A stretch of DNA of 44,866 nt from a virus (lineage: Duplodnaviria; Heunggongvirae; Uroviricota; Caudoviricetes), in IMG/VR virus record IMGVR_UViG_2579778842_000011, positions 1-44,866 of that record, one strand, 5' to 3'. The notes beneath the pieces are model-generated. The model searched no databases and was not told the DNA's origin. It worked only from the letters and a program-made list of their open reading frames with translations. Both the position numbers and the translations under genes were made by a program. Below, one piece after another: positions 7,859 through 44,043 of this stretch. Every line of letters starts with the position of its first letter. Position 1 is the first letter of the stretch.

Positions 7859-8299
<441 letters not shown>

Positions 8300-8350
8300 C
8301 TAAAATTTTTATTCATCGAATCGTTTGATTGATTAGTGAGCGGTTGAACG

Positions 8351-8405
8351 AAAAAAGATGAAAAAACTTCGAAAAAATTTCAAAAAAGACTTGACAAAAT
8401 CAAAA
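8351..8405. repeat. Phased A-tract array (predicted intrinsically bent DNA)
   Basis: A6 tracts at 8351, 8361, 8372, 8382 plus A4 tracts at 8395 and 8402, i.e. about 10-11 bp periodicity. Confidence 0.6.
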
Positions 8406-8642
8406 GGTACTGTTCCACGGGTGAAATAAAGGGAGTTTTCGGCACCCCGGTTTTTGATGTGCGTGTGAGATTTCAAAACAGGTGCAGTGCAGCCCACCAG
8501 CGCGGTCGCTACGCGACTATTAACACCCGCTAATCCCTTTCCCCGCCTCGATCTTTCCCTTCGTTATAAAGCGTTTTAGGCGCTCTCCTGAATGCGCAGA
8601 TCAGATAAATAATTTTACGCAAATTTAATGGAGGATAACCGG

Positions 8643-9197
8643 ATGAAAGAAGAATTAACCCTTACAGAAATTTCCCGCTTATACGGCTATACAATTAACG
8701 CCGCTAAGAAATGGCAAGAACGAGGAATGCCATTTAACACCAATACCCGCCGCGTACCAGCCAAAGAGGGGACCGAGTGGGTATTAAAAAATATCATCAA
8801 CCCGCTTAAAGAAACTACTGTCAAAGAACAAATCGACGTAGAAAAATTACGCCGTGAGAGAGCATTAGCGGATGCAGCCGAACGAGAGAACCAGGAAGCA
8901 ATGAATCTCCTGATTCCCGTCGGTTATGTAGAACAGCAACTAGCGGAATATTGCGGGAAAGTGAAGCAGACTATTTTGCAGATCGCCACAATCGACGCTT
9001 TAGAAATTCTCGAATCTGCCACTGACCAGAAAACATTAAAGAATAAGCTAAGGGAGATTATCGAGCGTCGTTTAAATGAAGTAGGGGACTTGTTCGAAAA
9101 TGCAGATTTGGGAGAAGACGAGGAAGAAGAATTACCATTAATGGATGAACCGGAAGAACAAGAACCAGAAGAAGACGATGAATTTGATGTGTCTTAA
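8643..9197 (+). CDS. Nu1-like winged-helix DNA-binding protein (terminase small subunit or recombination directionality factor candidate)
   Basis: ATG 8643 with GGAGG RBS; LTLTEISRLYGYTINAAKKWQERGMPF and EKLRRERALADAA resemble recalled lambda Nu1 N-terminus; acidic C-terminal tail. Confidence 0.45.
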   Translation: MKEELTLTEISRLYGYTINAAKKWQERGMPFNTNTRRVPAKEGTEWVLKNIINPLKETTVKEQIDVEKLRRERALADAAERENQEAMNLLIPVGYVEQQLAEYCGKVKQTILQIATIDALEILESATDQKTLKNKLREIIERRLNEVGDLFENADLGEDEEEELPLMDEPEEQEPEEDDEFDVS

Positions 9198-9203
9198 AAC
9201 GCG

Positions 9204-9220
9204 TTATAAATAATAGTGAG
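9204..9220 (+). promoter_or_regulatory. Recurrent 17-mer TTATAAATAATAGTGAG (copy 1), putative promoter -10/operator element
   Basis: Same motif recurs at 11159-11175 (minus), 12437-12453 and as a variant at 41018-41036, each 35-90 nt upstream of a gene start. Confidence 0.4.
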
Positions 9221-9246
9221 AAAGATGTTGAACGGGTCAACGTCTA

Positions 9247-9275
9247 CGGGGGAGAACATCCCCCGCTTAACTTTT
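9247..9275 (+). terminator. Hairpin, possible weak terminator/attenuator
   Basis: CGGGGGA-GAACA-TCCCCCG stem-loop followed by CTTAACTTTT. Confidence 0.3.
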
Positions 9276-9291
9276 AAGAGGATATAAAACT

Positions 9292-9576
9292 ATGGCTACT
9301 TTTATTACCTATGCTGTCACCATTACTATTCTGGCTGCTATCTCTGCTTATAAACTCGGAACCGAACCGAAAGAACGAGGCGAATTATTCTTAGGTGCGT
9401 TTGTTGCATTTGCTAGCCTTGCGTTAATTGTCGAAGGAATTTCTTATATTGTTGGCCTAGTTAGTATGACACTTTTTAACTTCCATCCAACTATTGCTAT
9501 GCATTTGATGCTGACCGTACTTTGGGTATATTGCTTAATCGAATTTTTAACGTTTGTTTTCAAACAGACTAAATAA
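9292..9576 (+). CDS. Small membrane protein (three predicted hydrophobic helices)
   Basis: 94 aa; AGAGGA RBS 9 nt upstream; three hydrophobic segments. Confidence 0.5.
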   Translation: MATFITYAVTITILAAISAYKLGTEPKERGELFLGAFVAFASLALIVEGISYIVGLVSMTLFNFHPTIAMHLMLTVLWVYCLIEFLTFVFKQTK

Positions 9577-9840
9577 TATTGTAATCTGCCTTTTCTCCTT
9601 ATGTGGTTTTAACAGGGAGCTTTCGAAAGAGAGTTCCCGATTAAAAGCCATAAAACACATTCAGTACAGTGTTTTCATAGTCAGTGATCTATACAACATA
9701 AAAACATAACAAGTATAGATTGAGTATTAATCCTCCCGCCTCGAAAGGGGCGGTTATTTTTCTGGCTTTACTGGATAATGTAGCATTATGTTCATTATAA
9801 ATCCTCATCTTTGTTGTGCAAACCTAACCTAAACTTACTA

Positions 9841-9865
9841 GGGACTCTTCGGAGTCCCTTTTTTT
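9841..9865. terminator. Bidirectional rho-independent terminator between convergent transcription units
   Basis: GGGACTC-TTCG-GAGTCCC followed by T7 on plus strand; overlaps the stop codon of the minus-strand 313 aa gene. Confidence 0.7.
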
Positions 9866-10805
9866 ATTGGCAGTAAGAAAAGTTAGTACCGTACATTTCA
9901 TCATGAAGCATTGCAGCATTGCGTTTCTGTTCTTCTTCCTCATCTTCTACATCACTAGAAAAATGAGATTTGCCCTTAAAAGAACGAAGTAATTGCAGTG
10001 CAGCCATCGGATCACGCATCACATCGATTTTCACTTCTACTTCATCATTTGCGGCCTCATCAGCCGCGTTTTCAACTACTGCCACCGGAGCAACTTCTTT
10101 AGCTTTCAGTTCTTCAATCTCAGCTTTCTGTGCTTCGATGATCTGGTCTTTTTCTTTCAGTGCAGCTTTCAGTTCTGCGATCTGTGCTTCCAGTGCAGCA
10201 AAGCGATCTTCAACAACCGGAGAAACAGCATTCACCTGTGCTTCCAGTTCCAGAAATGCTTCGCAAGATTCAATACGTTCTTTCTCTTCACCTTCATAAG
10301 CAACCAGTTCTACAACTTCTTTTTCGGTAGCGTGGCTGTTAAAGAATACAGCAAAGTAAGGATTGCCGGATTTAGTGAAGTTCAGTTTAGCTTTTCCGGT
10401 AACTTCTTTACGACGACCAAAGGTGATCTGGCAATCAGCGGTATCCTGAAAATCCATGTTAGGAGCGGAAACGATAGCAGTATCACCAGCAATAACCAGG
10501 TGGAACAGTTCAGAAGAGTTCTTAACGGTAAAGGTAACGATGTGGTCTACTGCAACGTCTTTAGCAGGTTTAACGCGGTCGATTGCTTTACGAATGCCGT
10601 TAGGCAGTTTACCGTCAACACCAAAGCCAGCCGCGATCAGTGCTTCACGATGTGCTTTAAAGCCAGCGAAAGCGGATTTCTGCTGCGCAAAGGAAACATG
10701 AGCAACAACTTTCGGCTGAATCTTCTTGTTTGCTTCGGTGCCAAATTTGATAACTGCTTTAGCGTTGGTTACTTCGTTAGTGAAAAAGTTAGCGGAAAAT
10801 AACAT
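9864..10805 (-). CDS. Hypothetical protein with central coiled coil and acidic C-terminal tail
   Basis: 313 aa; strong AGGAG RBS; heptad-like EAQIAELKAALKEKDQIIEAQKAEIEELKAK segment; C-terminal DVEDEEEEQ. Confidence 0.5.
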   Translation of the reverse strand: MLFSANFFTNEVTNAKAVIKFGTEANKKIQPKVVAHVSFAQQKSAFAGFKAHREALIAAGFGVDGKLPNGIRKAIDRVKPAKDVAVDHIVTFTVKNSSELFHLVIAGDTAIVSAPNMDFQDTADCQITFGRRKEVTGKAKLNFTKSGNPYFAVFFNSHATEKEVVELVAYEGEEKERIESCEAFLELEAQVNAVSPVVEDRFAALEAQIAELKAALKEKDQIIEAQKAEIEELKAKEVAPVAVVENAADEAANDEVEVKIDVMRDPMAALQLLRSFKGKSHFSSDVEDEEEEQKRNAAMLHDEMYGTNFSYCQ

Positions 10806-10854
10806 ATAAATACTCCTGAATACTCTGTGTTAGTTTTAATGTTTCATATCAAAA

Positions 10855-10890
10855 GCCTCCTTGCGCCAACAGGGAGGCTTTTTTATTTTT
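10855..10890. terminator. Hairpin terminator between the two minus-strand genes
   Basis: GCCTCCTTG..CAGGGAGGC stem followed by TTTTTTATTTTT on plus strand, A-run on the other side. Confidence 0.5.
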
Positions 10891-10922
10891 AAAGCCATCA
10901 TATAATTCTCAGTGAAAGGTTA

Positions 10923-11105
10923 TTACCAGACCTCGGCGGTAATCTTTACTTTAATGTCATACTTCTTTAAGAGTTTGTGAAAGGTTGATTGATCAATACC
11001 TTCACCTTTAAACCATTCACCCATCACTACATCAGGTGTCAGTTCAAAATAACGCTTTGCCATTTCTAAAACGATTTCACGAGTGAACTTAACAGGTCGT
11101 GCCAT
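10923..11105 (-). CDS. Small DNA-binding protein with resolvase/Hin-type HTH-like motif
   Basis: 60 aa; AGGAGG RBS; RPVKFTRE...GIDQSTFHKLLKKYDIK pattern; paralogous to 14641..14865. Confidence 0.45.
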   Translation of the reverse strand: MARPVKFTREIVLEMAKRYFELTPDVVMGEWFKGEGIDQSTFHKLLKKYDIKVKITAEVW

Positions 11106-11158
11106 CTTGAATCCTCCTAAATCTGGATTAATGATTTCTTAAAAAAGAGCGTCAACCG

Positions 11159-11175
11159 CTCACTATTATTTATAT
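11159..11175 (-). promoter_or_regulatory. Recurrent 17-mer (copy 2, ATATAAATAATAGTGAG on minus strand) upstream of the 60-aa gene
   Basis: Followed by AGTGAGCGGTTGACG, which also occurs at 8335-8350 near the prophage junction. Confidence 0.4.
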
Positions 11176-11622
11176 GGGGATTGTATTTTATTTTTCAACC
11201 CCTCACATTTATCTCTTATATATGTATTTATAACAGAGATATGTTAAAATGTTATTCAGATGTTATCAGACGTGTTAAATGTGTTAAACCGCAGCACGAA
11301 TTGCTAAAGCGGAGAGCACGAATTAACCAAATTGATGTATATTCAATCAATTTAGAAAAAGGCATAGCACTTTTTGCTAAAGCGGTGAGCATTAATTGAG
11401 CTATGAATTGTAAAGATTTGTTACAAGATTTTCTCTCAGATCCAAATCTTCACAAACATATAACAATTTAACAGAAGGATAACAAATGAAAGGAAATCGG
11501 TAAATTTTCACTTTCAATACAAATATTATACCACATTTTTCTCGAATTGTCAATTATAGCACCGATCCTACACAGTGTCAACAAAGGATTTTCAAACCTA
11601 CACTAGCCCTACACTATGAAAA

Positions 11623-11808
11623 TTGCCCCTGAATTTTTGCCCCTGAACCAAAATCCCCTAGATTCCACATCCAATTTTTGCCCCTGAAACCCACTATTTT
11701 TGCCCCTGAAATTCTGGGAAACAGTGATTTTGCCCCTCATTTTTGCCCCTGAAATGCCAATAATTGCCCCTGAAAATCTAATTTTTGCCCCTGAAATTTG
11801 CCCCTGAA
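11623..11808 (+). repeat. Iteron-like array: 9 direct copies of TTGCCCCTGAA (8 exact, 1 variant)
   Basis: Copies at 11623, 11637, 11678, 11700, 11730 (variant TTGCCCCTCAT), 11743, 11764, 11785, 11798; all same orientation, irregular 13-41 bp spacing, within a 1.4 kb region lacking ORFs of 60 aa or more. Confidence 0.75.
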
Positions 11809-12436
11809 AAGGATTTGTGAGAAAAACTCTTTATAAAACATTAACTTAGTGAGTGGCAAAACGGGGAATCGGGCGTGCATAGATATTATATAACACATTC
11901 GCTACGCTCATGTGTAAAACCAAAAACAACAAATAACCAAAAAGATATTAGGAGGGCGTAGCCCGACTGCGCGAAGCGCTAACCAATTACTTCTAGTAAC
12001 ACTAATTTAAACTAGATGATACTAGATGGTCTTAGAAGGAATTAACTAGTTTGCTCGCTCGCTTCGCTCACTCTCAAACGTCTGCGACGCCACTGCGTGG
12101 CATCGAGAATCACTTCTGAAAGGATTTTCTTGAAAGGGATTTTAAACTAGTTACTAACTGATTCTAGAAAGATAGTAATAATCACTTTGAAGATAATAGT
12201 AGTTAACTGGTTACTAGATGATTCTAGATCACTTTAATGATCATGAAAGGTATTGGTATCCCTTCGGGATTGCAACCTTCGGTTGCTAAATTGCTTCCTG
12301 ATTATAATTTCTCCAAAAGAAAGATTCTTATATTCTAAAGATACTTCTTCGTTTTGATGATGATTTAATCAAAATCTATGAAGGAGGCGAAGCCGACTGA
12401 ATACCAATTCCTTTCAAATTAGACAAAAATTTCTCG

Positions 12437-12453
12437 TTATAAATAATAGTGAA
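12437..12453 (+). promoter_or_regulatory. Recurrent 17-mer (copy 3, TTATAAATAATAGTGAA) about 35 nt upstream of gene 12489
   Basis: Sequence identity to copies 1 and 2. Confidence 0.4.
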
Positions 12454-12488
12454 CTTACTTTGATTCACTTTTTTAGAGGATTTCCACT

Positions 12489-12941
12489 ATGATCAATACT
12501 AAAACTCCTTTCATTCTTCTGGGTCTGAACCATGATGATAATCTGGCTATGATGCATGTTTTCGCTAATCGTGGTTATAACATCATTCGTCATTCCGAAG
12601 ACTCCAATTTCTCAACTGCTTTCTATGCTCTTAAACGTAATGGTCGCCCTACGGTGATCGTAGACTGCTTTACTGATGAAGGTCGTGAACAATACAACAA
12701 CATTCCGGCAATTATTGTTCGTGATGACCTGCCGTTTGATGTTCGTGAATATGACGTTGATTTAGGCTCTTACTATGGGATCGCCGATCTTGACCAGATT
12801 ATGGCTGATTATGGTAAACAACCCGCTCAGGAAGCCCCAGAACGAGATGAACAAGACGAAGATGACGACGACTACACACCAATCTGTTTCTCTTCTCACG
12901 GTGGCTTCTACGGTTACGATGAAGGCTTAGATATGCTGTAA
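12489..12941 (+). CDS. Hypothetical acidic early protein
   Basis: 150 aa; AGAGGA RBS; C-terminal ERDEQDEDDDDY acidic run. Confidence 0.5.
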   Translation: MINTKTPFILLGLNHDDNLAMMHVFANRGYNIIRHSEDSNFSTAFYALKRNGRPTVIVDCFTDEGREQYNNIPAIIVRDDLPFDVREYDVDLGSYYGIADLDQIMADYGKQPAQEAPERDEQDEDDDDYTPICFSSHGGFYGYDEGLDML

Positions 12942-12963
12942 TTTAGGTCAACCCTTTGGCGTC

Positions 12964-13005
12964 TTGTCAAGGGGTATTGACAAAAATTTCTGACTTTTTT
13001 ATGAT
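12964..13005 (+). promoter_or_regulatory. Candidate sigma70 promoter with overlapping inverted repeat (operator-like)
   Basis: TTGACA 12977-12982, 17 bp spacer, TATGAT 13000-13005; inverted repeat TTGTCAA(12964)/TTGACAA(12977) overlaps the -35. Confidence 0.45.
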
Positions 13006-13061
13006 TATCTCACTTGACAATTTTGAACCTATTTGACCTAGATTTGTAAAGAGGATGTAAC

Positions 13062-13394
13062 ATGAAAGAATTTACCATCACTAAATCCCTGTATGACTGG
13101 ACTGTTAAAATCTCCGGCAAAACCGTTTCTGTAACCCCTAGCCATGTAGAAAATGATTGGGGCGTATCCCGTGAAACTATCTCCCGTAGTATGCATGTTC
13201 CGTTTGATCTGATGTCCTTAACTGGTATTCATGCAATGCTGGAAGTTCGCGAACAATTCGAAGCTGGTAATCACAATGCGACTCCAGTTAGCAATCACCT
13301 TCTTACTAATGAAGAACGTGAAATCATCGAAAACTGGCGTTATGAATATGCGATTCCTTATTATGAAGAAGACCAAGTAGAAATCGATTGGTAA
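13062..13394 (+). CDS. Hypothetical protein
   Basis: 110 aa; AGAGGA RBS. Confidence 0.5.
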   Translation: MKEFTITKSLYDWTVKISGKTVSVTPSHVENDWGVSRETISRSMHVPFDLMSLTGIHAMLEVREQFEAGNHNATPVSNHLLTNEEREIIENWRYEYAIPYYEEDQVEIDW

Positions 13395-13493
13395 TAAATT
13401 TCTATCATAAATAAAAATGTTCCGCGCGCCGTTGGCGTGTGGACAGTTAAAAACAGGAGGATCATCACTAAACCGTTTAAGGGGAATTTAATT

Positions 13494-14324
13494 ATGAATA
13501 CTGTTACTGCTATGAATACTGCTAAAACTGCTTCCGTGTCTCTGGTTGTTGATAACACCAAACCGCTGACCATGTCTTCCCGTCAGATCGCTGAATTTAC
13601 CGGAAAAGAACACCACAAAGTTAAAGTTGATATAACTAAGATGTTGAATGCTCTAGGTTATGAAGATCACGCGAAGTTTCGCGTCATCTATTTTGACCAA
13701 TACGGACGCGAACAAAACGAATATCAACTAGACGAAGAAATGACTCTGACTCTTGTCACTGGTTACGATGTTAAGCGTCGAATGGTTGTTATTCAGGAAT
13801 GGAAACGACTGAAAGAAGAAAATGAAAAACTGCGTTCTCAGCAAGTCAACCCATACGCAAACATGACTAAGCTCGATTGGATTCGTGAGGCAATGGAATT
13901 GGAAGCCGCAAACGAACAACTGATTCAAGAAAAGAAACAACTGGTTGAATTGCATGTTCGTAAAGCTATCGACACACACAGTCTTAGCCGCTTATTAGGC
14001 GAAAAACGAGGCTCTACGAAGGTACAAATTATTCTGAAAGGTTTATGTGCTGCTGGTGTTCTTGAGCGTCGTCTGGATGCTTCTGGTAAGCCTAAAGGCT
14101 ATGATCTGCTTCCTCCTGGCTATATGTTCGCTCGTATGTCGGCACACGGTCAGATCGAGTTCACTGCTGATGCTATCCCGCATCTCGTAAAACTCGGATT
14201 GCTCGAAGAAGAAAAGGCCGCAACTTTGAAATTGCCACAGCCGAATAACTCACGAGCAATCGTCAATAATACTGCTTTGCTGATTCGTCAGAATGCTGGA
14301 TCACTGGAACACTTCGGACTGTGA
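13494..14324 (+). CDS. Rha-family phage regulatory protein / antirepressor-like
   Basis: ATG 13494 after AAGGGG; N-terminal LTMSSRQIAEFTGKEHHKVKVDITKML resembles the Phage_pRha domain; the track start at 13437 is a GTG without RBS. Confidence 0.55.
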   Translation: MNTVTAMNTAKTASVSLVVDNTKPLTMSSRQIAEFTGKEHHKVKVDITKMLNALGYEDHAKFRVIYFDQYGREQNEYQLDEEMTLTLVTGYDVKRRMVVIQEWKRLKEENEKLRSQQVNPYANMTKLDWIREAMELEAANEQLIQEKKQLVELHVRKAIDTHSLSRLLGEKRGSTKVQIILKGLCAAGVLERRLDASGKPKGYDLLPPGYMFARMSAHGQIEFTADAIPHLVKLGLLEEEKAATLKLPQPNNSRAIVNNTALLIRQNAGSLEHFGL

Positions 14325-14332
14325 TAATTTTT

Positions 14333-14356
14333 GCCCCTGAATTTCAGGGGCTTTTT
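14333..14356 (+). terminator. Rho-independent terminator built from the iteron motif
   Basis: GCCCCTGAA-T-TTCAGGGGC perfect inverted repeat followed by TTTTT. Confidence 0.75.
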
Positions 14357-14395
14357 GTATCTGGAGTTTTTCGCCGAAAACCTGCAATACAGAAT

Positions 14396-14598
14396 TTCGA
14401 AAGAATCAATAGGTTAGAGATGAGCGCAGTTTTGCGCCGATTGATTCAAGTTTGAATTTCTCGAAAGAATCAACCACTTAGATAGATACGCTGAACTTTA
14501 AGCACATCCCCTCAGTTTTGAGGGCATCTATAGATCAGTCCAAATCTCTGGACTCATCGGAAGAATCAATGACTTATAGATGAGCGCAGTTTTGCGCG
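14396..14598. repeat. Three dispersed copies of an approximately 40-bp unit with embedded small hairpins
   Basis: Units start 14396, 14459, 14556 (TCGAAAGAATCAA...TTAGAGATGAGCGCAGTTTTGCGC); hairpins GCGCA-GTTTT-GCGC, CCCTCA-GTTT-TGAGGG, AGTCCA..TGGACT, ATTCAA-GT-TTGAAT. Confidence 0.6.
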
Positions 14599-14603
14599 GA
14601 TAT

Positions 14604-14633
14604 AAAAAAAAGGCCAACCCCGAAGGATTGGCC
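14604..14633 (-). terminator. Rho-independent terminator for the minus-strand operon ending at 14641
   Basis: On minus strand GGCCAATCC-TTCG-GGGTTGGCC followed by T8. Confidence 0.75.
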
Positions 14634-14640
14634 TAGAGAA

Positions 14641-14865
14641 TCAAATTCCTGTTGCTTCTACCATTTCACCGTCAACCTGAACAAAGAATTTCAAATCAAC
14701 TTTATGGAGTGATTTGTAGAATTGAGCGATTGAAATACCGTGTTCACTCAATACTTGCTCTTTTTCGGCTTTACCTTTCGGTGCTTGATAGTACGCTTTT
14801 ACAATCGCTGCCAGTTGTTCACGATCAAAACGGCAAGGACGACCGCGAGTAGCTTTAGTAGTCAT
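14641..14865 (-). CDS. Small DNA-binding protein, paralog of 10923..11105
   Basis: Second ATG (14865) has GGAG at good spacing; TRGRPCRFDREQLAAIVKAYYQ and GISIAQFYKSLHKVDLK align with the 60-aa protein. Confidence 0.45.
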   Translation of the reverse strand: MTTKATRGRPCRFDREQLAAIVKAYYQAPKGKAEKEQVLSEHGISIAQFYKSLHKVDLKFFVQVDGEMVEATGI

Positions 14866-14899
14866 AGTCATTTCTCCAAATTAAAGTGAATGTTCACCT

Positions 14900-15502
14900 T
14901 TATTTAGAGGACTTACATTTTATCGGAAAAAGTTCTCCATCGTCAACCGACATAAAGAACTCTGCCTTAATCCCGTACTTCTTCAACCGTGAATAGTATG
15001 TACCCCGACTTATATCAACCTTGCGAAGCACTTCAAAGAACCCTTTAGGATCGTTGTAATAGTGGCTATAACGCACGTTAGCGAGTTCAACGAATAGTTC
15101 CCTTGTATCACCATAGCCTTTCTTGAAAGCCTCGTTACGATAGCGTGTAATTGCGTGATTCAATCTCTTCTGTTTCAACACTTCCCTGATCGGTGTCCAC
15201 TGCAACCGATAGATCGGACCGTCATCAATGCGATAATAACGCTTGATATCAAAATCAAACCAATCTCGGACTCTCCGAAACTCTGTATGTGATGTTCTAT
15301 GCTTCTTAAAGAAGTTGTGAACGTCTGTATAACCATTATCGCGGTAAAACTCTATTAAAATCTCTTTCGCTTCCTCACGACTAAAGCCAGATGTAGTGTA
15401 GTCGGTTTTTAAATGCTTATGCTTAACTGGCAAACGATATTCATGATCGGTACAAGACAAGGCTAATTCTAATTCATCTCTTTGTTGCTGATTAATTAGC
15501 AT
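14900..15502 (-). CDS. Hypothetical protein with C-terminal HTH-like motif shared with the two small paralogs
   Basis: 200 aa; AAAGGGGG RBS; C-terminal DISRGTYYSRLKKYGIK. Confidence 0.45.
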   Translation of the reverse strand: MLINQQQRDELELALSCTDHEYRLPVKHKHLKTDYTTSGFSREEAKEILIEFYRDNGYTDVHNFFKKHRTSHTEFRRVRDWFDFDIKRYYRIDDGPIYRLQWTPIREVLKQKRLNHAITRYRNEAFKKGYGDTRELFVELANVRYSHYYNDPKGFFEVLRKVDISRGTYYSRLKKYGIKAEFFMSVDDGELFPIKCKSSK

Positions 15503-15587: not shown

Positions 15588-17492
15588 ATGAAACTGATTT
15601 CAAATAAGGCCAAATTAAAAAAGATTCTCAGAAATATCTCTGCTGCAATTCGCCCACCTAAAGCCATGAAGCCTAGCGAATGGGTAGAGGCTAATGTAGT
15701 TGCAACCGATGGTGTTAAAGCCGGATCGCTAATTAAATTGCATCCCTTCCAACGTGGAATGATGGACGCGATCACCGAAGACCGTAGAAAAATTGTGTTT
15801 AAATGTTCGGCACAGTTGGGTAAGACCATGATTCTTAACGGAATTATCTTCCATCGGATCGCGAGTAACCCTACTAATATTGGGGTCTTGCAAAGTAACG
15901 TTAGGGAACTAAATTCTTGGATCGCTGGTAAGGTGAAGCCAGTATTAGAGGCAACGCCAGAATTAAAAGCGATGATCACCGACAAATCAGACCGTAATGC
16001 TGTTAACAACTCATCGATTATTCAGCTTCGTAATGGATCATTCATGTATTTCATGTCGCTGAACAGTCCATCACACTTGCGCGGTAAGACACTCCCTTTG
16101 ATTATTCTTGATGAAGTTGATGCGGCTGATGAATCAGACGAAGGGAACCCGATCCAGCTAGCGGAACAACGCGCAACCACTTTCGGGGAAGATGCAAGGA
16201 TCGTAATTGCTTCCACTCCAACCGCTCGTGATGGGGCGATTAACCAACAATGGGAACTCTCGGATAAGAGAAAATATCATGTCGTTTGCCAGCATTGCGG
16301 ACACAAGCACGTAATGGAATGGAGTAACGTACATTTCGATTGGCATACGATTAACGGTAAATCATTACCCAACCCAGATACAGCCGTTTACCGTTGCCCT
16401 GAATGTGAAACCGATTGGACCGAAGGGGATCGCCTCCGTGCTGTTGCTCAGGGAGAATGGGTCGCCACCGAACCAAATGCGGAAGTAATCGGTTTTCATG
16501 CTAACCGCCTTATGTCTCCGTTTAGTTCTATCCGTGCGTGTGTGGTGGACTTTGCTGATAGCTACGCGAATATGTCCCTGGCAACGTTCTACAATACAGT
16601 CCTCGGTGAAACCTTCGATGATCTTAACGAAGATCGCACAGCCGACGAACTGGAAACGCTGAAAACTGATATTAGCCTAGACAATATTCCTGATGATGTA
16701 CTGGCTCTGGTAGGTGGAGTTGACCAGCAAAAAGACCGTCTGGAATCTACCTTGCTGGGTATTTCTCGTAAAGGGCTATGCGTAGTTGATCACCGATCAT
16801 TCTATGATGTGAACTGCGAACGCCACGAATCACCAGCATATAACCAGCTTTACAACTTCCTGAAAGCTAAATTCTATACCCGATCCGGTGAACGAATCCC
16901 GATGTTATCTGCTTTCGTGGACTCATCGAACGGACGAGCTACAAACGTGATCTATCGATTCTGTAGTCGGTGGCAAAATCTAACCGCCATTAAAGGCGCA
17001 AGCAATGTTGATGCACCAATCCTTCCGGTAAAAGACACAAGAACGGGTGGTTTTACCCTTAAAATTCTGGGCGTAAACAACCTTAAAACGATGATCCGTG
17101 AAATGATTAACCGGAACTTGAGAGATGGCGATCCTCACACTGTCTTCCAGATTGGTGACGTTCCTGATGACTATTGCGAGCAATTGCTTTCTGAACAGTT
17201 GAAACGGCAGGGTAATACCACACGTTGGGTAAAAGTTGGACAAACACGAAACGAAGCGTTGGACTGCCTGGCTTATTCCTATGCTGCTTCTCGTCATGTA
17301 CTCAATAAAATGTCATGGGAAAAACTCGAAGCCATCAAAGATAGTTTGAACCGTGAACCAGAAGAATCCGTAGAAGCTCCTAAATCGCAATCTAACGAGC
17401 AAATCGAAGAAACTAAGCCAATCACACGACCACAACGTAAAAACATCGCCAGACGCCCAAATAGAGGCCGTAGCTGGGTAACATCGTTCTAA
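15588..17492 (+). CDS. Terminase large subunit (lambda GpA family)
   Basis: 634 aa; Walker-type segments; C-terminal WVKVGQTRNEALDCLAYSYAA resembles recalled lambda gpA RNEALDCFVYALAA. Confidence 0.85.
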   Translation: MKLISNKAKLKKILRNISAAIRPPKAMKPSEWVEANVVATDGVKAGSLIKLHPFQRGMMDAITEDRRKIVFKCSAQLGKTMILNGIIFHRIASNPTNIGVLQSNVRELNSWIAGKVKPVLEATPELKAMITDKSDRNAVNNSSIIQLRNGSFMYFMSLNSPSHLRGKTLPLIILDEVDAADESDEGNPIQLAEQRATTFGEDARIVIASTPTARDGAINQQWELSDKRKYHVVCQHCGHKHVMEWSNVHFDWHTINGKSLPNPDTAVYRCPECETDWTEGDRLRAVAQGEWVATEPNAEVIGFHANRLMSPFSSIRACVVDFADSYANMSLATFYNTVLGETFDDLNEDRTADELETLKTDISLDNIPDDVLALVGGVDQQKDRLESTLLGISRKGLCVVDHRSFYDVNCERHESPAYNQLYNFLKAKFYTRSGERIPMLSAFVDSSNGRATNVIYRFCSRWQNLTAIKGASNVDAPILPVKDTRTGGFTLKILGVNNLKTMIREMINRNLRDGDPHTVFQIGDVPDDYCEQLLSEQLKRQGNTTRWVKVGQTRNEALDCLAYSYAASRHVLNKMSWEKLEAIKDSLNREPEESVEAPKSQSNEQIEETKPITRPQRKNIARRPNRGRSWVTSF

Positions 17493-38835: not shown

Positions 38836-40326
38836 TTATATAGCAATGGTTTTAGTTGCATAGCTGAACTTGTCGGTTAGATAATAGCGGATTCTCTCAA
38901 GTGCATGTTTTACCGCATAATTTTTATGCTTGACTTTTCCGTTACGACCGAATATACACAGATGATCTATAAGATCCCAGACCGTTGCAATATCCTTAGA
39001 ACCATGTTTACGCAATGCACGACCGATACTCTGACGAACGATAGTTGATTCCTTCACTGGATGACCGAAAATAACATGGTGCAAATTCTTAATTGAAACA
39101 CCAGTAGAGAACACACCATAGGATGCAACACAAATGATCCCTGTTTCCCCTTCCGCTAATTTCTTAAATTCATCACGTTCTTCTGTCTTAACTCCACCGT
39201 CAATATAATAAACCTTGTCGTGTACCTTCTGTAACGCATCATACATAAGTTTTCCGTGCTTAGTATTGCGGAACATCAGGAATACGTTTTCGCCCTTCTT
39301 AGCGAGTTTTAGCGCCAAATTACAAGCAAACTTATTTCGTCGTGGGTTAGACGTAATATACTTGATCTCTTCCGCATATTCCCGCCCCTTAACCGCGCTA
39401 CATTCCTCATCGGTATAACGAAGGAAAAGGCAGTTAATTTTCAGTTTTGTCACTTGACCTTCTTCCATCAGGCGGTCAATACTCACGATCTTAGAAATAT
39501 CACCGAAAAGCCCGACGTACTGCATTAAATGGCACTTTGATTCTTTCGGGGAACCAGTCATACCGATTTTGAACTGGCAATGATTCATTCCGTTAATGAT
39601 ATTGGTAATATTTTTGGCACTAGCCTTATGTGATTCATCAACTATCAACATTCCATATTGTTTGAACCATTCAGGAGGCATCTTGCAAGCTGATTGCCAG
39701 GTACTAACCGTGATTAACCTGTCTCCCGGATGTTTCCCGCTACCACTCATCATTGTATGAATTGCTTCATAAGGGAATAGCCTATAATCGACAAAATCAT
39801 CCCTCATTTGAACCACCAGCGATGTAGTAGGGACAATGATTAGAACTTTTCCGGTGTAGTTCTCTAAGTACCAACGAGACAGCATACAAGCAATCAATGA
39901 CTTACCCGCACTGGTAGGAAGAACCAGCATTCTACGGCGATTATGAATACCCTGAAAGACTGCCTCCCTTTGATACCAGTAAGGATTGATTTTATTGGAA
40001 CCGGAATACACTTCTAGGGAATCAATCCATTCATTAATCGCGTCTTTGGTTACATCTTCCTTCTCAAGCAATCTGGGGTCAATCCAGACTGAATAGCCCA
40101 TATTTTTAACGAAGACACCCAACGTTTTTAATAGTCCAATTGGTAGGGTGTTTTCATGCGTAAACAGTCTTATTCGTCCATCCCAGCCAGAATACTTGTA
40201 ACGGGGGCTAAACCTAGCCCCTTCAACCTCAAACGAGAAATAATCTCTTAATTCCATTCCGATAGAAGGAGAGCAATCAACCTTAACGAAACTGTAATCT
40301 TGAAAATGAATTTTAATATCTTGCAT
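38836..40326 (-). CDS. SF2 DExH helicase, T4 UvsW-like
   Basis: ATG at 40326 overlapping upstream stop (TAATG); N-terminus MQDIKIHFQDYSFVKVDC and whole length resemble recalled T4 UvsW; motifs LPTSAGKSL, DESH, QSIGRALRKHG. Confidence 0.8.
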   Translation of the reverse strand: MQDIKIHFQDYSFVKVDCSPSIGMELRDYFSFEVEGARFSPRYKYSGWDGRIRLFTHENTLPIGLLKTLGVFVKNMGYSVWIDPRLLEKEDVTKDAINEWIDSLEVYSGSNKINPYWYQREAVFQGIHNRRRMLVLPTSAGKSLIACMLSRWYLENYTGKVLIIVPTTSLVVQMRDDFVDYRLFPYEAIHTMMSGSGKHPGDRLITVSTWQSACKMPPEWFKQYGMLIVDESHKASAKNITNIINGMNHCQFKIGMTGSPKESKCHLMQYVGLFGDISKIVSIDRLMEEGQVTKLKINCLFLRYTDEECSAVKGREYAEEIKYITSNPRRNKFACNLALKLAKKGENVFLMFRNTKHGKLMYDALQKVHDKVYYIDGGVKTEERDEFKKLAEGETGIICVASYGVFSTGVSIKNLHHVIFGHPVKESTIVRQSIGRALRKHGSKDIATVWDLIDHLCIFGRNGKVKHKNYAVKHALERIRYYLTDKFSYATKTIAI

Positions 40327-40895
40327 TAGTTCCACTCCACACTTGCAATATTCTTTATATTGTTTAGTGATTTATTGCAGTAGTGGAATGTTTCAGTTTT
40401 GCCGTATTCAATCCCGCCTATACCCACATCCAGTAATCTCTTTATTGCTCTTTCAGTGGCTAAAGCATGTTTCATTGATGGCATTTCACCAGCAAAGACA
40501 ATATCAAAGTTATGACCGGGATTGCGTACACCCAGATTAATGCGTCGCTTGATGATTGACTTTGTTACACCAAATTTACCAATATCCCCTGATTTCATTA
40601 CATAGAGATAAGGCACACCCGCTTTATATTGAAAGTAATCACTTTTGAGACATGCACAGCGTTTACCTTCATTAAGCAGGTTGGTAGCTGATTTGTCGGC
40701 TCTATTGCCGCATCGGGTACATGTAAGAGCAATTCTTGAATGAAGCCCTTTAAACTCACCCAGAAAGCCATGAAAGACTAATGGTAAGTCCTTATCTTTG
40801 ATGTGAGTCAGAATGCGTTGTTCTAATGCCGATGGAGTTACAGCACGGGAGGATTTAGGAGTAAAAACAATATCTTTAGCCATTACTGGAATCAT
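40326..40895 (-). CDS. Zinc-ribbon + T5orf172/GIY-YIG-like domain protein
   Basis: 189 aa; GAGG RBS; CTRCGN...CAC Cys cluster; YLYVMKSGDIGKFGVTK...R...E pattern. Confidence 0.5.
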   Translation of the reverse strand: MIPVMAKDIVFTPKSSRAVTPSALEQRILTHIKDKDLPLVFHGFLGEFKGLHSRIALTCTRCGNRADKSATNLLNEGKRCACLKSDYFQYKAGVPYLYVMKSGDIGKFGVTKSIIKRRINLGVRNPGHNFDIVFAGEMPSMKHALATERAIKRLLDVGIGGIEYGKTETFHYCNKSLNNIKNIASVEWN

Positions 40896-41017
40896 ATAGA
40901 CCTCACTTTTTTAACTTATAGGCATAACCTCAATATGGTTGGTTTGGGATTTAGGGTCGCGTATTATACACATTCAGATAGAGAATGCAATAGTAAGACA
41001 ATTTTCTCTAATAAATA

Positions 41018-41036
41018 GTAGTGAGCTTATTATTTT
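41018..41036 (+). promoter_or_regulatory. Variant copy of the recurrent 17-mer (TAATAAATAGTAGTGAGC) upstream of gene 41050
   Basis: Similarity to the copies at 9204, 11159 and 12437. Confidence 0.3.
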
Positions 41037-41049
41037 AGAGGAAACTACT

Positions 41050-42225
41050 ATGAAACTTGCTTACGCTGCCGAAATTCCTTTTGTTAAGAAAACTCGCGGT
41101 TTATCACCGGAAGAGTACCAACAACGAATCATCGCTAAACTGGAACCTGCTTTCGTATTTGGTGGATTTATCCTACCGTGGAAGGGTAATCACACTTACT
41201 TTCGAATCTACAATTTAGACACACAAGAATATAAGGACTACAAATTACGCAAACTGGAAGATACTAACGGGGGTGAGTTATTCCAGACTGAAAAGGCTGT
41301 ATGGTTGAAAATGGAATCTCGTTGTAATGAGAAGGGAAAGAAATTCCTCGGATGGCAAGGAGAATGGAAAGGGCGAAATAGAACGAAAGCCCGTGTTTTG
41401 TGCCCTGAACACAATCAAATCATGACGCCATCTCTATTACATGCTCTCAAAGATGATTTCGATTTTGATTGCAAAATCTGTATGGCTGAAAAATCCCAAC
41501 GGGTAAGAAGTGGCAAGACTTTTGATGAAGTTATTAAGGACAAAGAGACAATCATCAATGCACGTTGCGAGAGTACGCCTTACACCTTCAAAGGATTCAT
41601 CATAAACACCCCACACCTAAAGGATGTTAAATTTAAAACCTATTGCAAGACACATAACCACGAATGGGAATCTCATTTAAGATGTGCTGATTCTTTCACT
41701 TGTCCGCTTTGCATTAAAGACCAACTGGTGCAACTGTCTAACCGGACTTATCAGGGTAAGGCTAGTTTCTACATTCAATTATTAGATGACAAATTTATTA
41801 AATTTGGAATCACTACCCGGAAACCAGAAGAACGAATGAGAGAGCAAACCAGAAAGAGCAACTTCACTCACCGCTTAATCTTTACTCATGAGTTTGAGGA
41901 TGGTTGGAAAGCCGTTGATTTAGAGCATGAAGTAAAACAACGCTTCAAGACTCATGCAGCACCCTACAAAGATTTCAAGGATGGATGGTCGGAAACTCTG
42001 ACTATTGATGAGTTACCACACTTACAGCAACTGGTTTATGACTACCTAACCAATCAACCGGACGAGGCTAATATGTGGGTATCCCCGAAAGATGTATTTG
42101 ATGACGATACATTCAAGCTACATACTCACTTCTACGGCATCAATAAACCGGAATTTTTCTGTATTGATGACGACAGTCCTGATTTAATGGATGAATACTT
42201 TAATACGCTCTTAGACGCTGCCTAA
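41050..42225 (+). CDS. Paralogous protein with two Cys/His zinc-ribbon modules and C-terminal T5orf172/GIY-YIG-like domain
   Basis: ATG 41050 after AGAGGA (track ORF begins upstream without RBS); CPEHN...CKIC and CKTHNHEW...CPLC; FYIQLLDDKFIKFGITTRK. Confidence 0.45.
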   Translation: MKLAYAAEIPFVKKTRGLSPEEYQQRIIAKLEPAFVFGGFILPWKGNHTYFRIYNLDTQEYKDYKLRKLEDTNGGELFQTEKAVWLKMESRCNEKGKKFLGWQGEWKGRNRTKARVLCPEHNQIMTPSLLHALKDDFDFDCKICMAEKSQRVRSGKTFDEVIKDKETIINARCESTPYTFKGFIINTPHLKDVKFKTYCKTHNHEWESHLRCADSFTCPLCIKDQLVQLSNRTYQGKASFYIQLLDDKFIKFGITTRKPEERMREQTRKSNFTHRLIFTHEFEDGWKAVDLEHEVKQRFKTHAAPYKDFKDGWSETLTIDELPHLQQLVYDYLTNQPDEANMWVSPKDVFDDDTFKLHTHFYGINKPEFFCIDDDSPDLMDEYFNTLLDAA

Positions 42226-42298: not shown

Positions 42299-43978
42299 TT
42301 AAATTCCAAATTCCTGTAATGGACCTGGTATTTCCTCTTCTGGTTTCCAGTTCTTATCTGTCAGCATGTCTAAACATGGATGCAGAACAAGCCCGTTACT
42401 CTCCAGAATCTGCCTATCATTGATAGTTTTCAAATCGACAAAGATTTGTCCTTTCCTCGTTCCTCTTGAATTTTCTATTACAACTCTCTGGGTCTTTCCA
42501 TCGATGTATTCCAGTACAAACAAGTTTTTGTTTCTGTCAATCCTGCTACACCCGATCCGCTTTAGAGCTTGCTTAATCTTAAACCGGACCTTTAGTCGTT
42601 CCTCGTTGTAAACATCTTCTAAATCAAATTCTGCGAGCTTCTCCCAGCCTTGAGAGTCAACAGAATACATTTCCTCTTCTGCCATCTTGATCTGATTGTA
42701 GAGTGTTTCACGCTCGCTATTGAGGGTAGTAATCTGATCGGCTAGCTCCTTCGTTGCTCCTGTCATAGCAGAAAGGGCAATCAGGTTATCAATCTTGCGT
42801 GATATCTCATCAACCTGTACTTTTAAAGCCGGAACCGGATTAGCCTTGTCCTCAGCAATCCAGATTTTATCAGCCAGCAATTGCAATACAGCTTTCTCTA
42901 ATTGATCACCTCGAAAACTCCAGTTTGGATGCTCGCAATCAAGTCTACGTGAACGGGTCGCATCACATGTATAACGATACTGGTCAGAACGTTTGTTCGT
43001 TCCCTTCACTTTAACCATAGCGCAACCGCAATGATCACATTTCAATAGGCCAATACCACTAAGCAGGGGGATCGGTTTAACTTCTTCCTTGTCTCCAAAG
43101 TTCCATGCTCTAGCACCAATATTTTTCTTAAGGTGATAGAACGTAGGGTCATCAATAACACGAGGGTAATAATCCTTTAACTCATAGTTAACGCCATCTA
43201 CAGAGACCTCCTTGATACCAATCAAAGCGCGGGTATGAAACAACCTTTCAACCATTGCCCGTGACCATTTTGAATGCTTCTTGTTGCTAACCGCTGGTGG
43301 CGGTGTATAAGTCTCGTTAAGGTGATCCAGTATCTCGGCGGTTGAACGTCCATTCTTCCGTAATTCCACAATCTCCTGAACAACAGGGAAGTACACCGGA
43401 TGAGGCAGCACATAACCGGAAGTGGTATCAGTCCACCACATATTCTTTCCAACTTCCTCGATTGCCACTGCCGGATTCTGGGGATTTTCTTGATGCGACT
43501 TAATCTTAATCAGTGCGCTTGAGTTAGTACGATTGCGCTTAGTCTGACTTTCCTCATTACCACGGATGAATAGAAGGATGGAGAACATCAGGTCCATCGG
43601 ATTAGCGGTAACAGTATCCAGCGAGTAGATCTTGTTATCCATGCCAGTAACAATGGTTATTCCCCTACGGATGATTGAAAGGAATAACTCCTGCGCACTG
43701 ACAATATCGGCACGGGATAAGCGGTCCAAGTTTTCAATGAATAGCCAGCTACCAACAGGAACGGATCTACCAATTGCATCAAGGAAACGAGATAGCGCCC
43801 CTGTTTTAGAGTTAGCACCTTTAAACGCAGATACACCCAGATCCTGATAATCATTTACCAGTTCAAGGTCATACTTTGCCGCAATCTCTCTCGCCATCCT
43901 GATTTGTCGTTCATAACTCGAACCATCACTCTGACGCATAGACGAGAAGCGAATATACGAATACAGTTTAGTTTTCAT
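42299..43978 (-). CDS. Large serine recombinase (phage integrase of the serine family)
   Basis: ATG at 43978 (track start 43993 is TTG); N-terminal YSYIRFSSMRQSDGSSYERQ resolvase catalytic motif, ENLDRLSR, Cys-rich zinc ribbon CDHCGC...CDATRSRRLDCEH, coiled coil. Confidence 0.85.
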   Translation of the reverse strand: MKTKLYSYIRFSSMRQSDGSSYERQIRMAREIAAKYDLELVNDYQDLGVSAFKGANSKTGALSRFLDAIGRSVPVGSWLFIENLDRLSRADIVSAQELFLSIIRRGITIVTGMDNKIYSLDTVTANPMDLMFSILLFIRGNEESQTKRNRTNSSALIKIKSHQENPQNPAVAIEEVGKNMWWTDTTSGYVLPHPVYFPVVQEIVELRKNGRSTAEILDHLNETYTPPPAVSNKKHSKWSRAMVERLFHTRALIGIKEVSVDGVNYELKDYYPRVIDDPTFYHLKKNIGARAWNFGDKEEVKPIPLLSGIGLLKCDHCGCAMVKVKGTNKRSDQYRYTCDATRSRRLDCEHPNWSFRGDQLEKAVLQLLADKIWIAEDKANPVPALKVQVDEISRKIDNLIALSAMTGATKELADQITTLNSERETLYNQIKMAEEEMYSVDSQGWEKLAEFDLEDVYNEERLKVRFKIKQALKRIGCSRIDRNKNLFVLEYIDGKTQRVVIENSRGTRKGQIFVDLKTINDRQILESNGLVLHPCLDMLTDKNWKPEEEIPGPLQEFGI

Positions 43979-44043
43979 ACCATTTCCAAACAAAAACGCC
44001 CCTACCGTGTATTATAACGATAGGGGCATTGGTTAGTAAGTCA

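What the first reader, a model, noticed from the sequence alone, without database searches (positions are those of the whole stretch)
8643..9197. Nu1-like DNA-binding protein encoded 6.4 kb away from the large terminase and next to the attachment junction
Its N-terminus carries the KKWQERGMPF / EKLRRE signature recalled from lambda Nu1, yet the gene sits at the prophage edge rather than immediately upstream of the GpA-like terminase, which is preceded by divergent small HTH genes. It may be a displaced small terminase, implying cos/pac near the attachment site, or a Nu1-fold protein recruited as excision factor for the serine integrase.
Basis: partly seen in the sequence, partly recalled or inferred. 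Interest (0 to 1): 0.45.

Follow-up and report, generated by a model that had tools for sequence, protein, structure and literature searches.

The report
Displaced lambda-type small terminase gene
The gene at 8643-9197 is a divergent but genuine relative of lambda's small terminase Nu1. In a whole group of enterobacterial prophages it is encoded 4-9 kb away from the large terminase gene, an unusual gene order but an ordinary function.

Summary
A 184-aa ORF (8643-9197, +) lies about 365 bp inside attL of a roughly 36.8-kb serine-integrase prophage that splits ycdX. It ends 6.39 kb upstream of a gpA-type large terminase gene (15588-17492).

Direct similarity to lambda Nu1 is weak: Pfam scores below threshold, and BLASTP aligns only 27 aa. 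Profile methods are decisive. PHROG 57, lambda Nu1's own family, scores E 4.8e-15 over the full length. hhalign against a lambda Nu1 alignment gives 99.6% probability over 148 columns. The best fold matches are Nu1-type DNA-binding domains.

In all 41 related loci that retain both genes and share at least 38% identity, terL lies 4.4-8.6 kb downstream. In the two most distant relatives, terS sits directly upstream of terL. No other terS candidate was found in the prophage ORFs scanned.

So this is the phage's small terminase with a conserved displaced gene order. The excision-factor idea has no support. Position at the prophage edge is specific to this attP placement.

A conserved 93-nt non-coding element (8402-8494) always accompanies terS. 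It is a candidate packaging site, unproven. Separated terS and terL genes are already known, for example in phage E217, so the case is ordinary to mildly interesting.

The parts
8270..8280 (.). attL crossover region inside ycdX. The host sequence ...CCGGAAATCC joins the phage sequence AAGATTAG... attR lies beyond the window end.
   Evidence: attL in the window was compared with attR in NZ_AP027850. ycdX is annotated as truncated on both sides of the prophage.
8349..8392 (+). Four phased A-tracts with a 10-11 nt period, followed by GACTTGACA (8388-8396), where sequence conservation among relatives begins.
   Evidence: No sigma-70 promoter was called by the consensus scan.
8402..8494 (+). Conserved 93-nt non-coding element linked to terS. 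It reads AAAAGGTACT, then GGGAGTTTTCGG, then a GC-rich 11-mer, a T-run, and GTGAGATTTCAAAAC..TGCAGTGCA. It is a candidate packaging (cos) site; its function is not shown.
   Evidence: nhmmer finds one copy per locus, always on the + strand next to terS. It lies upstream in most relatives and in the canonical loci L050 and L051, and downstream of terS in Hafnia-type loci. No RNA structure is supported. There is no Rfam hit and no similarity to lambda cos.
8495..8642 (+). Variable leader between the element and terS. It holds a GTCGCTACGCGAC palindrome, two CTTTCCC repeats and the GGAGGA ribosome-binding site (8629-8634). It is conserved only among close relatives.
   Evidence: A role as TerS-binding sites (cosB-like) is inference only.
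8643..9197 (+). terS, a Nu1-family small terminase of 184 aa. It has an N-terminal winged helix-turn-helix (about residues 1-55), a long helical middle (60-153) and an acidic disordered tail (152-184).
9204..9265 (+). The TTATAAATAATAGTGA motif (9204-9219) and a terminator-like hairpin (9247-9265) just after terS. Together they suggest that terS is its own transcription unit.
   Evidence: These are consensus scans only.
9292..15502 (.). Intervening 6.2-kb module: ORF94 (+), ORF313 (-), ORF60 (-), a 1.4-kb non-coding stretch with iteron arrays, ORF150 (+), ORF110 (+), a Rha-type antirepressor (+), ORF76 (-) and ORF200 (-).
   Evidence: The same layout, but not the same sequences, is seen in distant relatives.
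15588..17492 (+). terL, the gpA-type large terminase of 634 aa. Its basic N-terminal peptide MKLISNKAKLKKILRN (15588-15635) is the inferred docking site for the acidic TerS tail.
   Evidence: Pfam GpA_ATPase 5e-62 and GpA_nuclease 5e-46. The N-terminal peptide is conserved across two terL alleles that are 59% identical.

Best explanation
The ORF encodes this prophage's small terminase subunit (TerS), a divergent member of the lambda Nu1 family.

By analogy with lambda, its N-terminal winged helix-turn-helix would bind phage DNA at the packaging site. The helical middle would drive self-assembly. The acidic C-terminal tail would recruit the gpA-type large terminase through that enzyme's basic N-terminal peptide. 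The holoenzyme would then cut concatemers and package DNA.

What differs from lambda is gene order only. In this clade of Enterobacterales prophages, terS is separated from terL by a 4-9 kb block of divergently transcribed early or regulatory genes. It appears to be transcribed on its own.

The packaging site is most likely the conserved 93-nt element plus the variable leader just upstream of terS (8402-8642). That would put cos about 125 bp from attP in this phage.

Shown here: the homology, the synteny pattern, the linkage of the element to terS, and the terL mosaic. Inferred: DNA binding, the TerS-TerL contact, and the identity of cos.
For: 1. Full-length homology to Nu1.
- PHROG 57 scores E 4.8e-15 over residues 1-168, and lambda Nu1 belongs to PHROG 57.
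- hhalign of the family against lambda Nu1 plus 16 relatives gives 99.6% probability and E 1.5e-23. Residues 3-151 align to Nu1 residues 1-166.
- An exhaustive profile search found 124 relatives. Of the 62 aligned and scanned (the window protein plus 61 near-full-length relatives), 30 match Pfam Phage_Nu1, the best at 9e-18.
- A profile built from those relatives hits lambda Nu1 PDB chains at 1e-14 and 7e-13.

2. Fold. The three best Foldseek PDB hits of the AF2 model are TerS DNA-binding domains 7lw0, 1j9i (lambda gpNu1) and 6hn7_B, with probabilities 0.92-0.96.

3. Synteny.
- In the two most distant relatives (L050 at 32% identity, L051 at 30%) the gene sits 44 and 38 bp, by tblastn match ends, upstream of terL. 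In L050 the ORFs overlap.
- In all 41 loci that hold both genes and share at least 38% identity, terL lies 4.4-8.6 kb downstream on the same strand.

4. No alternative terS.
- None of the insert, lysis or early ORFs scanned hits a terS family.
- ORF200, next to terL, has no TerS-like fold.

5. Complementary ends.
- An acidic TerS tail and a basic TerL N-terminal peptide are conserved across the clade.
- The same TerS pairs with two terL alleles that are 59% identical. DNA similarity is kept only up to terL codon 16 and resumes from about codon 553.

6. Some database records already name relatives of 74-77% identity 'terminase small subunit'. Serratia and Pantoea relatives carry the same name.
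Against: - Direct sequence evidence is weak. Pfam Phage_Nu1 scores below its cut-off, no NCBIfam model matches, and BLASTP aligns only 27 residues.
- The last 33 residues do not align with the gpA-binding C-terminus of Nu1.
- The lambda wing loop GGGKGNE is absent.
- The AF2 model is of modest quality, with mean pLDDT 68 and pTM 0.30, and Foldseek E-values are about 0.3.
- No experiment or read-end data show packaging function or DNA ends.
- The conserved N-terminus of TerL could simply mark a recombination breakpoint.
Confidence: 0.85

Rival explanations
1. A Nu1-fold protein recruited as the recombination directionality factor (excisionase) for the large serine integrase. It would act at attL/attR, next to which it is encoded.
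For: - The N-terminal domain is a MerR/Xis-like winged helix. Weaker fold hits include the RdfS excisionase, BldC and MerR proteins.
- Lambda Nu1 itself weakly matches excisionase PHROGs.
- The gene lies 365 bp from attL.
- Serine integrase homologues lie 4-6 kb upstream of terS in several relatives.
Against: - Homology to Nu1 extends well beyond the DNA-binding domain, over 148 columns.
- Our protein hits only the terS PHROG.
- The outgroup loci L050 and L051 have the gene fused into a terS-terL operon, with no serine integrase in the flanks held.
- In relatives the gene is not next to an att site.
- If this were not TerS, the phage would have no TerS candidate.
Confidence: 0.04
2. A Nu1-derived DNA-binding regulator of the early region that no longer works in packaging. 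The true TerS would be an unrecognised small protein, for example ORF200 or ORF76 next to terL.
For: - The gene sits among early or regulatory genes and seems to be its own transcription unit.
- ORF60, ORF76 and ORF200 are unknown, conserved, and next to terL.
- TerS proteins are hard to recognise in general.
Against: - ORF200 and ORF76 are on the opposite strand and are not conserved in sequence in the distant split relatives.
- They have no hit in any family or structure library.
- The Nu1-like protein keeps the helical assembly region and an acidic tail that matches the basic TerL N-terminus across the clade.
- The gene is intact and conserved in 64 of 5426 complete E. coli genomes and across eight Enterobacterales genera.
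Confidence: 0.08
3. A decaying remnant gene in a defective prophage, with no current function.
For: Most records annotate it as a hypothetical protein.
Against: - The ORF is full-length with a strong ribosome-binding site.
- 61 columns are invariant across family members down to 55% identity.
- The prophage carries complete head, tail, lysis and integrase modules.
Confidence: 0.02

Closest known systems
Bacteriophage lambda gpNu1 (Pfam PF07471 Phage_Nu1; PHROG 57)
   Same: - An N-terminal winged helix-turn-helix, including the WQE(R/Q)GMP motif.
- An EKLRRE-containing linker and a helical assembly region alignable to Nu1 residues 1-166.
- Similar size, 184 versus 181 aa.
- Partnered with a gpA-type TerL.
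   Different: - About 18% identity at profile level.
- Lacks the lambda GGGKGNE wing loop.
- The C-terminal 33 residues are an acidic, predicted-disordered tail that does not align with the gpA-binding end of Nu1.
- The gene is 6.4 kb from terL instead of overlapping it.
- No detectable similarity between its upstream DNA and lambda cos.
Phages whose terS is not adjacent to terL (Pseudomonas phage E217, cited in review PMC9611059; P2 gpM/gpP, from my own knowledge)
   Same: TerS is encoded away from TerL. The review states that proximity 'is not a universal feature'.
   Different: Those phages use other TerS and TerL families. Here the split occurs within the lambda Nu1/gpA lineage. It is conserved over a clade, and an outgroup keeps the canonical order.
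Winged-helix excisionases and MerR-like regulators (RdfS, BldC, lambda Xis class)
   Same: The same fold class for the N-terminal roughly 55 residues.
   Different: Those are small single-domain proteins. This protein has about 130 further residues that are homologous to Nu1.

Membership tests
Lambda Nu1-type small terminase (PF07471 / PHROG 57) | Significant match to the family profile | tested here: met
   - PHROG 57 scores E 4.8e-15 over the full length.
- hhalign against a lambda Nu1 alignment gives 99.6% probability, E 1.5e-23.
- The Pfam model itself scores only 15.4 bits against a cut-off of 30, so Pfam's own criterion is not met directly.
- 30 of the 62 sequences scanned from the profile-search alignment do meet Pfam Phage_Nu1 at E below 0.001.
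Lambda Nu1-type small terminase (PF07471 / PHROG 57) | N-terminal winged helix-turn-helix DNA-binding domain of the Nu1 type | tested here: met
   In the AF2 model residues 1-50 have pLDDT 79-86. The top Foldseek hits are 7lw0, 1j9i and 6hn7_B, with probabilities 0.92-0.96, TM-score to target 0.58-0.64 and E about 0.3.
Lambda Nu1-type small terminase (PF07471 / PHROG 57) | Helical self-assembly region following the DNA-binding domain | tested here: met
   Helices are predicted at 60-90, 93-112, 116-125 and 129-153. This region aligns to Nu1 residues 81-166. Oligomerisation itself was not tested.
Lambda Nu1-type small terminase (PF07471 / PHROG 57) | C-terminal segment that binds the N-terminus of gpA | tested here: inconclusive
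   The tail (152-184) does not align with Nu1. An acidic tail and a basic TerL N-terminal peptide are conserved together over the clade and across a terL allele swap. Binding is inferred, not shown.
Lambda Nu1-type small terminase (PF07471 / PHROG 57) | Gene immediately upstream of, or overlapping, the gpA-type terL | tested here: not met
   The gap is 6390 bp in the window and 4.4-8.6 kb in all 41 loci that hold both genes at 38% identity or more. The feature is met only in L050 and L051. This is a typical feature of the family, not a defining one.
Lambda Nu1-type small terminase (PF07471 / PHROG 57) | Binds repeated cosB sites next to cosN, just upstream of its own gene | not testable with these tools
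   A conserved terS-linked 93-nt element and a variable leader exist. No end-mapping or binding data were available, and there is no similarity to lambda cos.
Recombination directionality factor for a large serine integrase | Controls the direction of integrase recombination. There is no defining sequence family. | not testable with these tools
   The only support is proximity to attL and fold-class resemblance. The synteny in L050 and L051 and the full-length Nu1 homology argue against it.

The most novel reading that the evidence does not exclude
terS plus the adjacent 93-nt element may form a self-contained 'packaging-specificity cassette' (cos plus its reader) that has become physically uncoupled from the motor gene.

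The element stays next to terS on either side of the gene. Meanwhile the catalytic core of terL is swapped between prophages, and only a 16-residue basic docking peptide and the C-terminal roughly 80 residues are kept.

If true, this clade would be a natural system for asking how little of TerL must match TerS and the portal. In this phage, cos would lie about 125 bp from attP.
Probability: 0.3. Interest if true: 0.45.

Novelty: new member of a known kind. Interest (0 to 1): 0.3.

Why it matters
- Annotation: it assigns a function to a protein that RefSeq mostly labels 'hypothetical'. The protein occurs in prophages of E. coli, Salmonella, Citrobacter, Hafnia, Rahnella, Serratia, Pantoea and Rouxiella.
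- Prediction methods: searching only next to terL misses small terminases, even within the lambda Nu1/gpA lineage.
- Experimental leads: it nominates a short DNA element as the packaging site. It also nominates a 16-residue TerL peptide and an acidic TerS tail as the subunit contact. Both are cheap to test.
- Limits: it does not change how terminases are understood to work.

Tried and rejected
- Near-identical DNA in cultured phages: none found. The only cultured record with relatives, phage DCP80, is a chimeric T4-like plus lambda-like assembly and says nothing about DNA ends.
- Contig ends as a proxy for cos: contigs L007, L009, L010 and L011 end at ycdX or where sequences diverge, not at a common site.
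- Structured RNA in the conserved element: there is no Rfam hit. RNAalifold gives no consensus structure. My hand-drawn hairpin is no better than shuffles, at 67% versus 64% paired with 50 of 500 shuffles as high. Rejected.
- Sigma-70 promoter upstream of terS: none was called. The conserved TTGACA has no matching -10 at a workable spacing, judged by reading the sequence.
- Iterons (TTGCCCCTGAA, nine copies) as TerS-binding sites: rejected. Prophages with identical TerS (L012, L013, L017, L019) lack the array.
- Similarity of the element to lambda cos: none.
- ORF200 and ORF76 as an alternative TerS or as helix-turn-helix proteins: no Pfam, PHROG, NCBIfam, PADLOC or PDB sequence hit, and the ORF200 AF2 model has no meaningful fold match.
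- Genome-contig scan with the family alignment: returned nothing. Host range was taken from cluster names instead.
- Literature on a ycdX serine-integrase prophage: nothing relevant found.

Full report
**Setting**

The window is E. coli chromosome (pga genes, ghrA) followed by a prophage that splits ycdX. In a 97%-identical copy in strain 2017.18.04CC both halves of ycdX are annotated as truncated, and the element spans about 36.8 kb.

Comparing attL in the window with attR in that genome places the crossover at about 8270-8280. The host sequence CCGGAAATCC joins the phage sequence AAGATTAG there. attR lies just beyond the window end. A 564-aa large serine integrase (42299-43993, minus strand) and three small ORFs precede it.

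**The observation**

The ORF at 8643-9197 (+) encodes 184 aa and has a GGAGGA ribosome-binding site 8 nt upstream. RefSeq calls the same CDS a hypothetical protein. Both quoted motifs, KKWQERGMPF and EKLRRE, are present.

A gpA-type large terminase (Pfam GpA_ATPase 5e-62, GpA_nuclease 5e-46) starts at 15588, which is 6390 bp downstream. Two minus-strand ORFs of 76 and 200 aa sit directly in front of it. All coordinates and distances in the finding are therefore correct.

**Is it Nu1-like?**

Direct tests are marginal.
- Pfam Phage_Nu1 scores E 0.015 and 15.4 bits, against a cut-off of 30.
- No NCBIfam model matches.
- BLASTP against lambda Nu1 aligns 27 residues at 33% identity, E 4e-5.

Profile tests are clear.
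- PHROG 57 matches at 4.8e-15 over residues 1-168. Lambda Nu1 is itself a PHROG 57 member at 1.3e-76.
- A 13-sequence family profile searched exhaustively against 1.84 billion representatives found 124 proteins at E up to 1e-3.
- I aligned the window protein with 61 near-full-length relatives and scanned all 62. Thirty match Pfam Phage_Nu1 (best 9e-18) and 11 match DUF1441.
- The profile of that wider alignment hits lambda Nu1 PDB chains 6hn7_B and 1j9i at 1e-14 and 7e-13.
- hhalign of our narrow family against lambda Nu1 plus 16 of its relatives gives 99.6% probability and E 1.5e-23. Residues 3-151 align to Nu1 residues 1-166. The homology therefore covers the helical assembly region, not only the DNA-binding domain.

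The AF2 model is modest overall (mean pLDDT 68) but good for residues 1-50. Its three best PDB matches are Nu1-class DNA-binding domains, with probabilities 0.92-0.96. MerR, BldC and excisionase folds follow.

Two features are not shared with lambda: the GGGKGNE wing loop and the C-terminal 33 residues. In our protein those residues form an acidic, low-confidence tail.

**Synteny decides the interpretation**

I gathered 40 viral-contig loci plus contigs that encode family members. I then located terS and terL in each by tblastn.

- In every one of the 41 loci that hold both genes and share at least 38% TerS identity, terL lies 4.4-8.6 kb downstream on the same strand.
- In the two most distant loci (L050 at 32% and L051 at 30% TerS identity, both with 36% TerL identity) terS is immediately upstream of terL. 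In L050 the two ORFs overlap, as Nu1 and A do in lambda.

The family is therefore the terS of this lineage, and the split gene order is a conserved derived state of one clade. That clade spans Escherichia, Salmonella, Citrobacter, Hafnia, Rahnella, Serratia, Pantoea and Rouxiella. A few records already carry the name 'terminase small subunit'.

No other ORF scanned in the insert, lysis or early regions hits a terS family. ORF200, next to terL, has no family, PDB or fold match.

**Not a property of the prophage edge**

- In L004, also integrated in ycdX, three small minus-strand genes lie between the junction and terS.
- In L005 and L006, eight or so minus-strand genes lie upstream of terS.
- In L008, a 398-aa gene lies upstream.
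- In a Hafnia relative (L054) a likely host gene, an MFS transporter, lies about 4 kb downstream of terS with no terL in the 5 kb held. This suggests the host junction falls between terS and terL there.

The closeness to attL in this window reflects where attP happens to sit.

**The intervening block**

The block contains ORF94, ORF313 and ORF60 (both minus strand), and a 1.4-kb non-coding stretch. ORF150, ORF110 and a Rha-type antirepressor follow, then ORF76 and ORF200 on the minus strand.

Distant relatives keep this layout but not the sequences.

The non-coding stretch holds phage-specific arrays of short repeats, with TTGCCCCTGAA nine times here. Prophages with identical TerS have different arrays, so these repeats are not TerS sites.

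**A cis element that travels with terS**

Upstream of terS a 93-nt block (8402-8494) is conserved across the clade, including L050 and L051. An HMM of it finds one copy per locus, always on the terS strand.
- In most loci it lies 100-250 nt upstream of terS.
- In Hafnia-type loci it lies 47 nt downstream of the terS stop codon.

That placement argues against a simple terS promoter and for a DNA site functionally tied to TerS. It is not attP, because it occurs in loci with no adjacent junction.

I could not show what it is. There is no Rfam hit, no consensus RNA structure, and no significant covariation for a hairpin I proposed. No sigma-70 promoter is called, and there is no similarity to lambda cos. 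Reading it as cos is inference, at a probability of roughly 0.4.

**TerS-TerL contact**

Across the clade TerS ends in an acidic tail, and TerL begins with a basic peptide (MKLISNKAKLKKILRN here) followed by the RPP..PSEW motif. That motif aligns with lambda gpA RPEP..VEW.

From my own knowledge of the lambda literature (Feiss and co-workers), the C-terminus of Nu1 binds the N-terminal roughly 48 residues of gpA, and the C-terminus of gpA binds the prohead.

The same TerS (97-100% identical, with the same tail) pairs with two terL alleles that are only 59% identical. DNA similarity between such prophages stops at 15635 (terL codon 16) and resumes at about 17244-17250, near codon 553.

The swap thus replaces the catalytic core and keeps both presumed docking ends. 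This fits the model, but a recombination breakpoint with no functional meaning could also produce it.

**Comparison with what is known, and verdict**

Small terminase genes usually neighbour terL, but not always. A review cites phage E217, where the two genes are 58 kb apart. The function here is ordinary, and the gene order is an uncommon variant within the lambda-type lineage.

- Displaced small terminase: supported, confidence 0.85.
- Excision factor: unsupported, about 0.04.
- cos near attP: plausible and testable, but unproven.

Noticed in passing
window 11106-12488: A 1.4-kb non-coding stretch holds repeat arrays: TTGCCCCTGAA nine times at 11623-11808, plus ACTAG/CTAGA-type repeats at about 11990-12230. 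Relatives have arrays of different sequence at the same place, often with 11-nt spacing (L005 TTTCTAGT, L004 AATCCCCnGATTCCAC, L008 TCCCCGT). This could be an origin of replication or an operator array. The array differs between prophages with identical TerS.
   Followed up: partly
window 9204-9219 (+), 12437-12452 (+), 11160-11175 (-), 41009-41024 (+, 2 mismatches): The 16-nt motif TTATAAATAATAGTGA recurs about 35-90 nt upstream of gene starts in both orientations. There are 6 matches at up to 3 mismatches against 0.8 expected. It may be a phage-specific promoter or operator.
   Followed up: partly
window 15636-17243 (inside terL): The catalytic core of terL is a mosaic cassette. Prophages L008, L009 and L013 are 85-95% identical in DNA on both sides but have no detectable DNA similarity across terL codons 17 to about 552 (protein 59% identical).
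   Followed up: yes
window 10923-11105 (-), 14641-14871 (-), 14900-15502 (-): ORF60 and ORF76 are paralogues. A tblastn search with ORF76 hits the ORF60 position in L004. The C-terminal half of ORF200 resembles them by eye. The ORF200 AF2 model (pLDDT 76) shows two repeats of three helices plus a beta hairpin, with no match in the PDB. Function is unknown.
   Followed up: partly
window 38836-42225: An SF2 DNA helicase (499 aa, minus strand) is flanked by two paralogous PHROG 681 'endonuclease' proteins, ORF189 (minus) and ORF428 (plus). RefSeq annotates the ORF428 homologue as a GIY-YIG nuclease family protein. No recognisable replication initiator or CI-type repressor was found in the ORFs scanned.
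   Followed up: no
window 14331-14353: One extra iteron copy and its inverted partner (TTGCCCCTGAA-T-TTCAGGGGCTT) form a near-perfect palindrome just after the Rha gene. It is conserved in relatives that lack the main array and may be a terminator or a binding site.
   Followed up: no
L052/L053 (PQ671644.1, Escherichia phage DCP80): This 141-kb record is filed as a T4-like Gaprivervirus. It looks like a chimeric assembly: its first 26-30 kb or so are a lambda-like structural module (TerL 43% identical to ours, terS-like gene at 25.8 kb), joined to T4-like segments that carry a duplicated rIIA gene.
   Followed up: partly
window 7874-8299 and attR (outside the window): The prophage interrupts ycdX, a zinc-binding phosphatase, within the codons for ...ISHPGNP|KYE... 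Related DNA occurs in 64 of 5426 complete E. coli genomes. How many of those copies sit in ycdX was not checked.
   Followed up: partly
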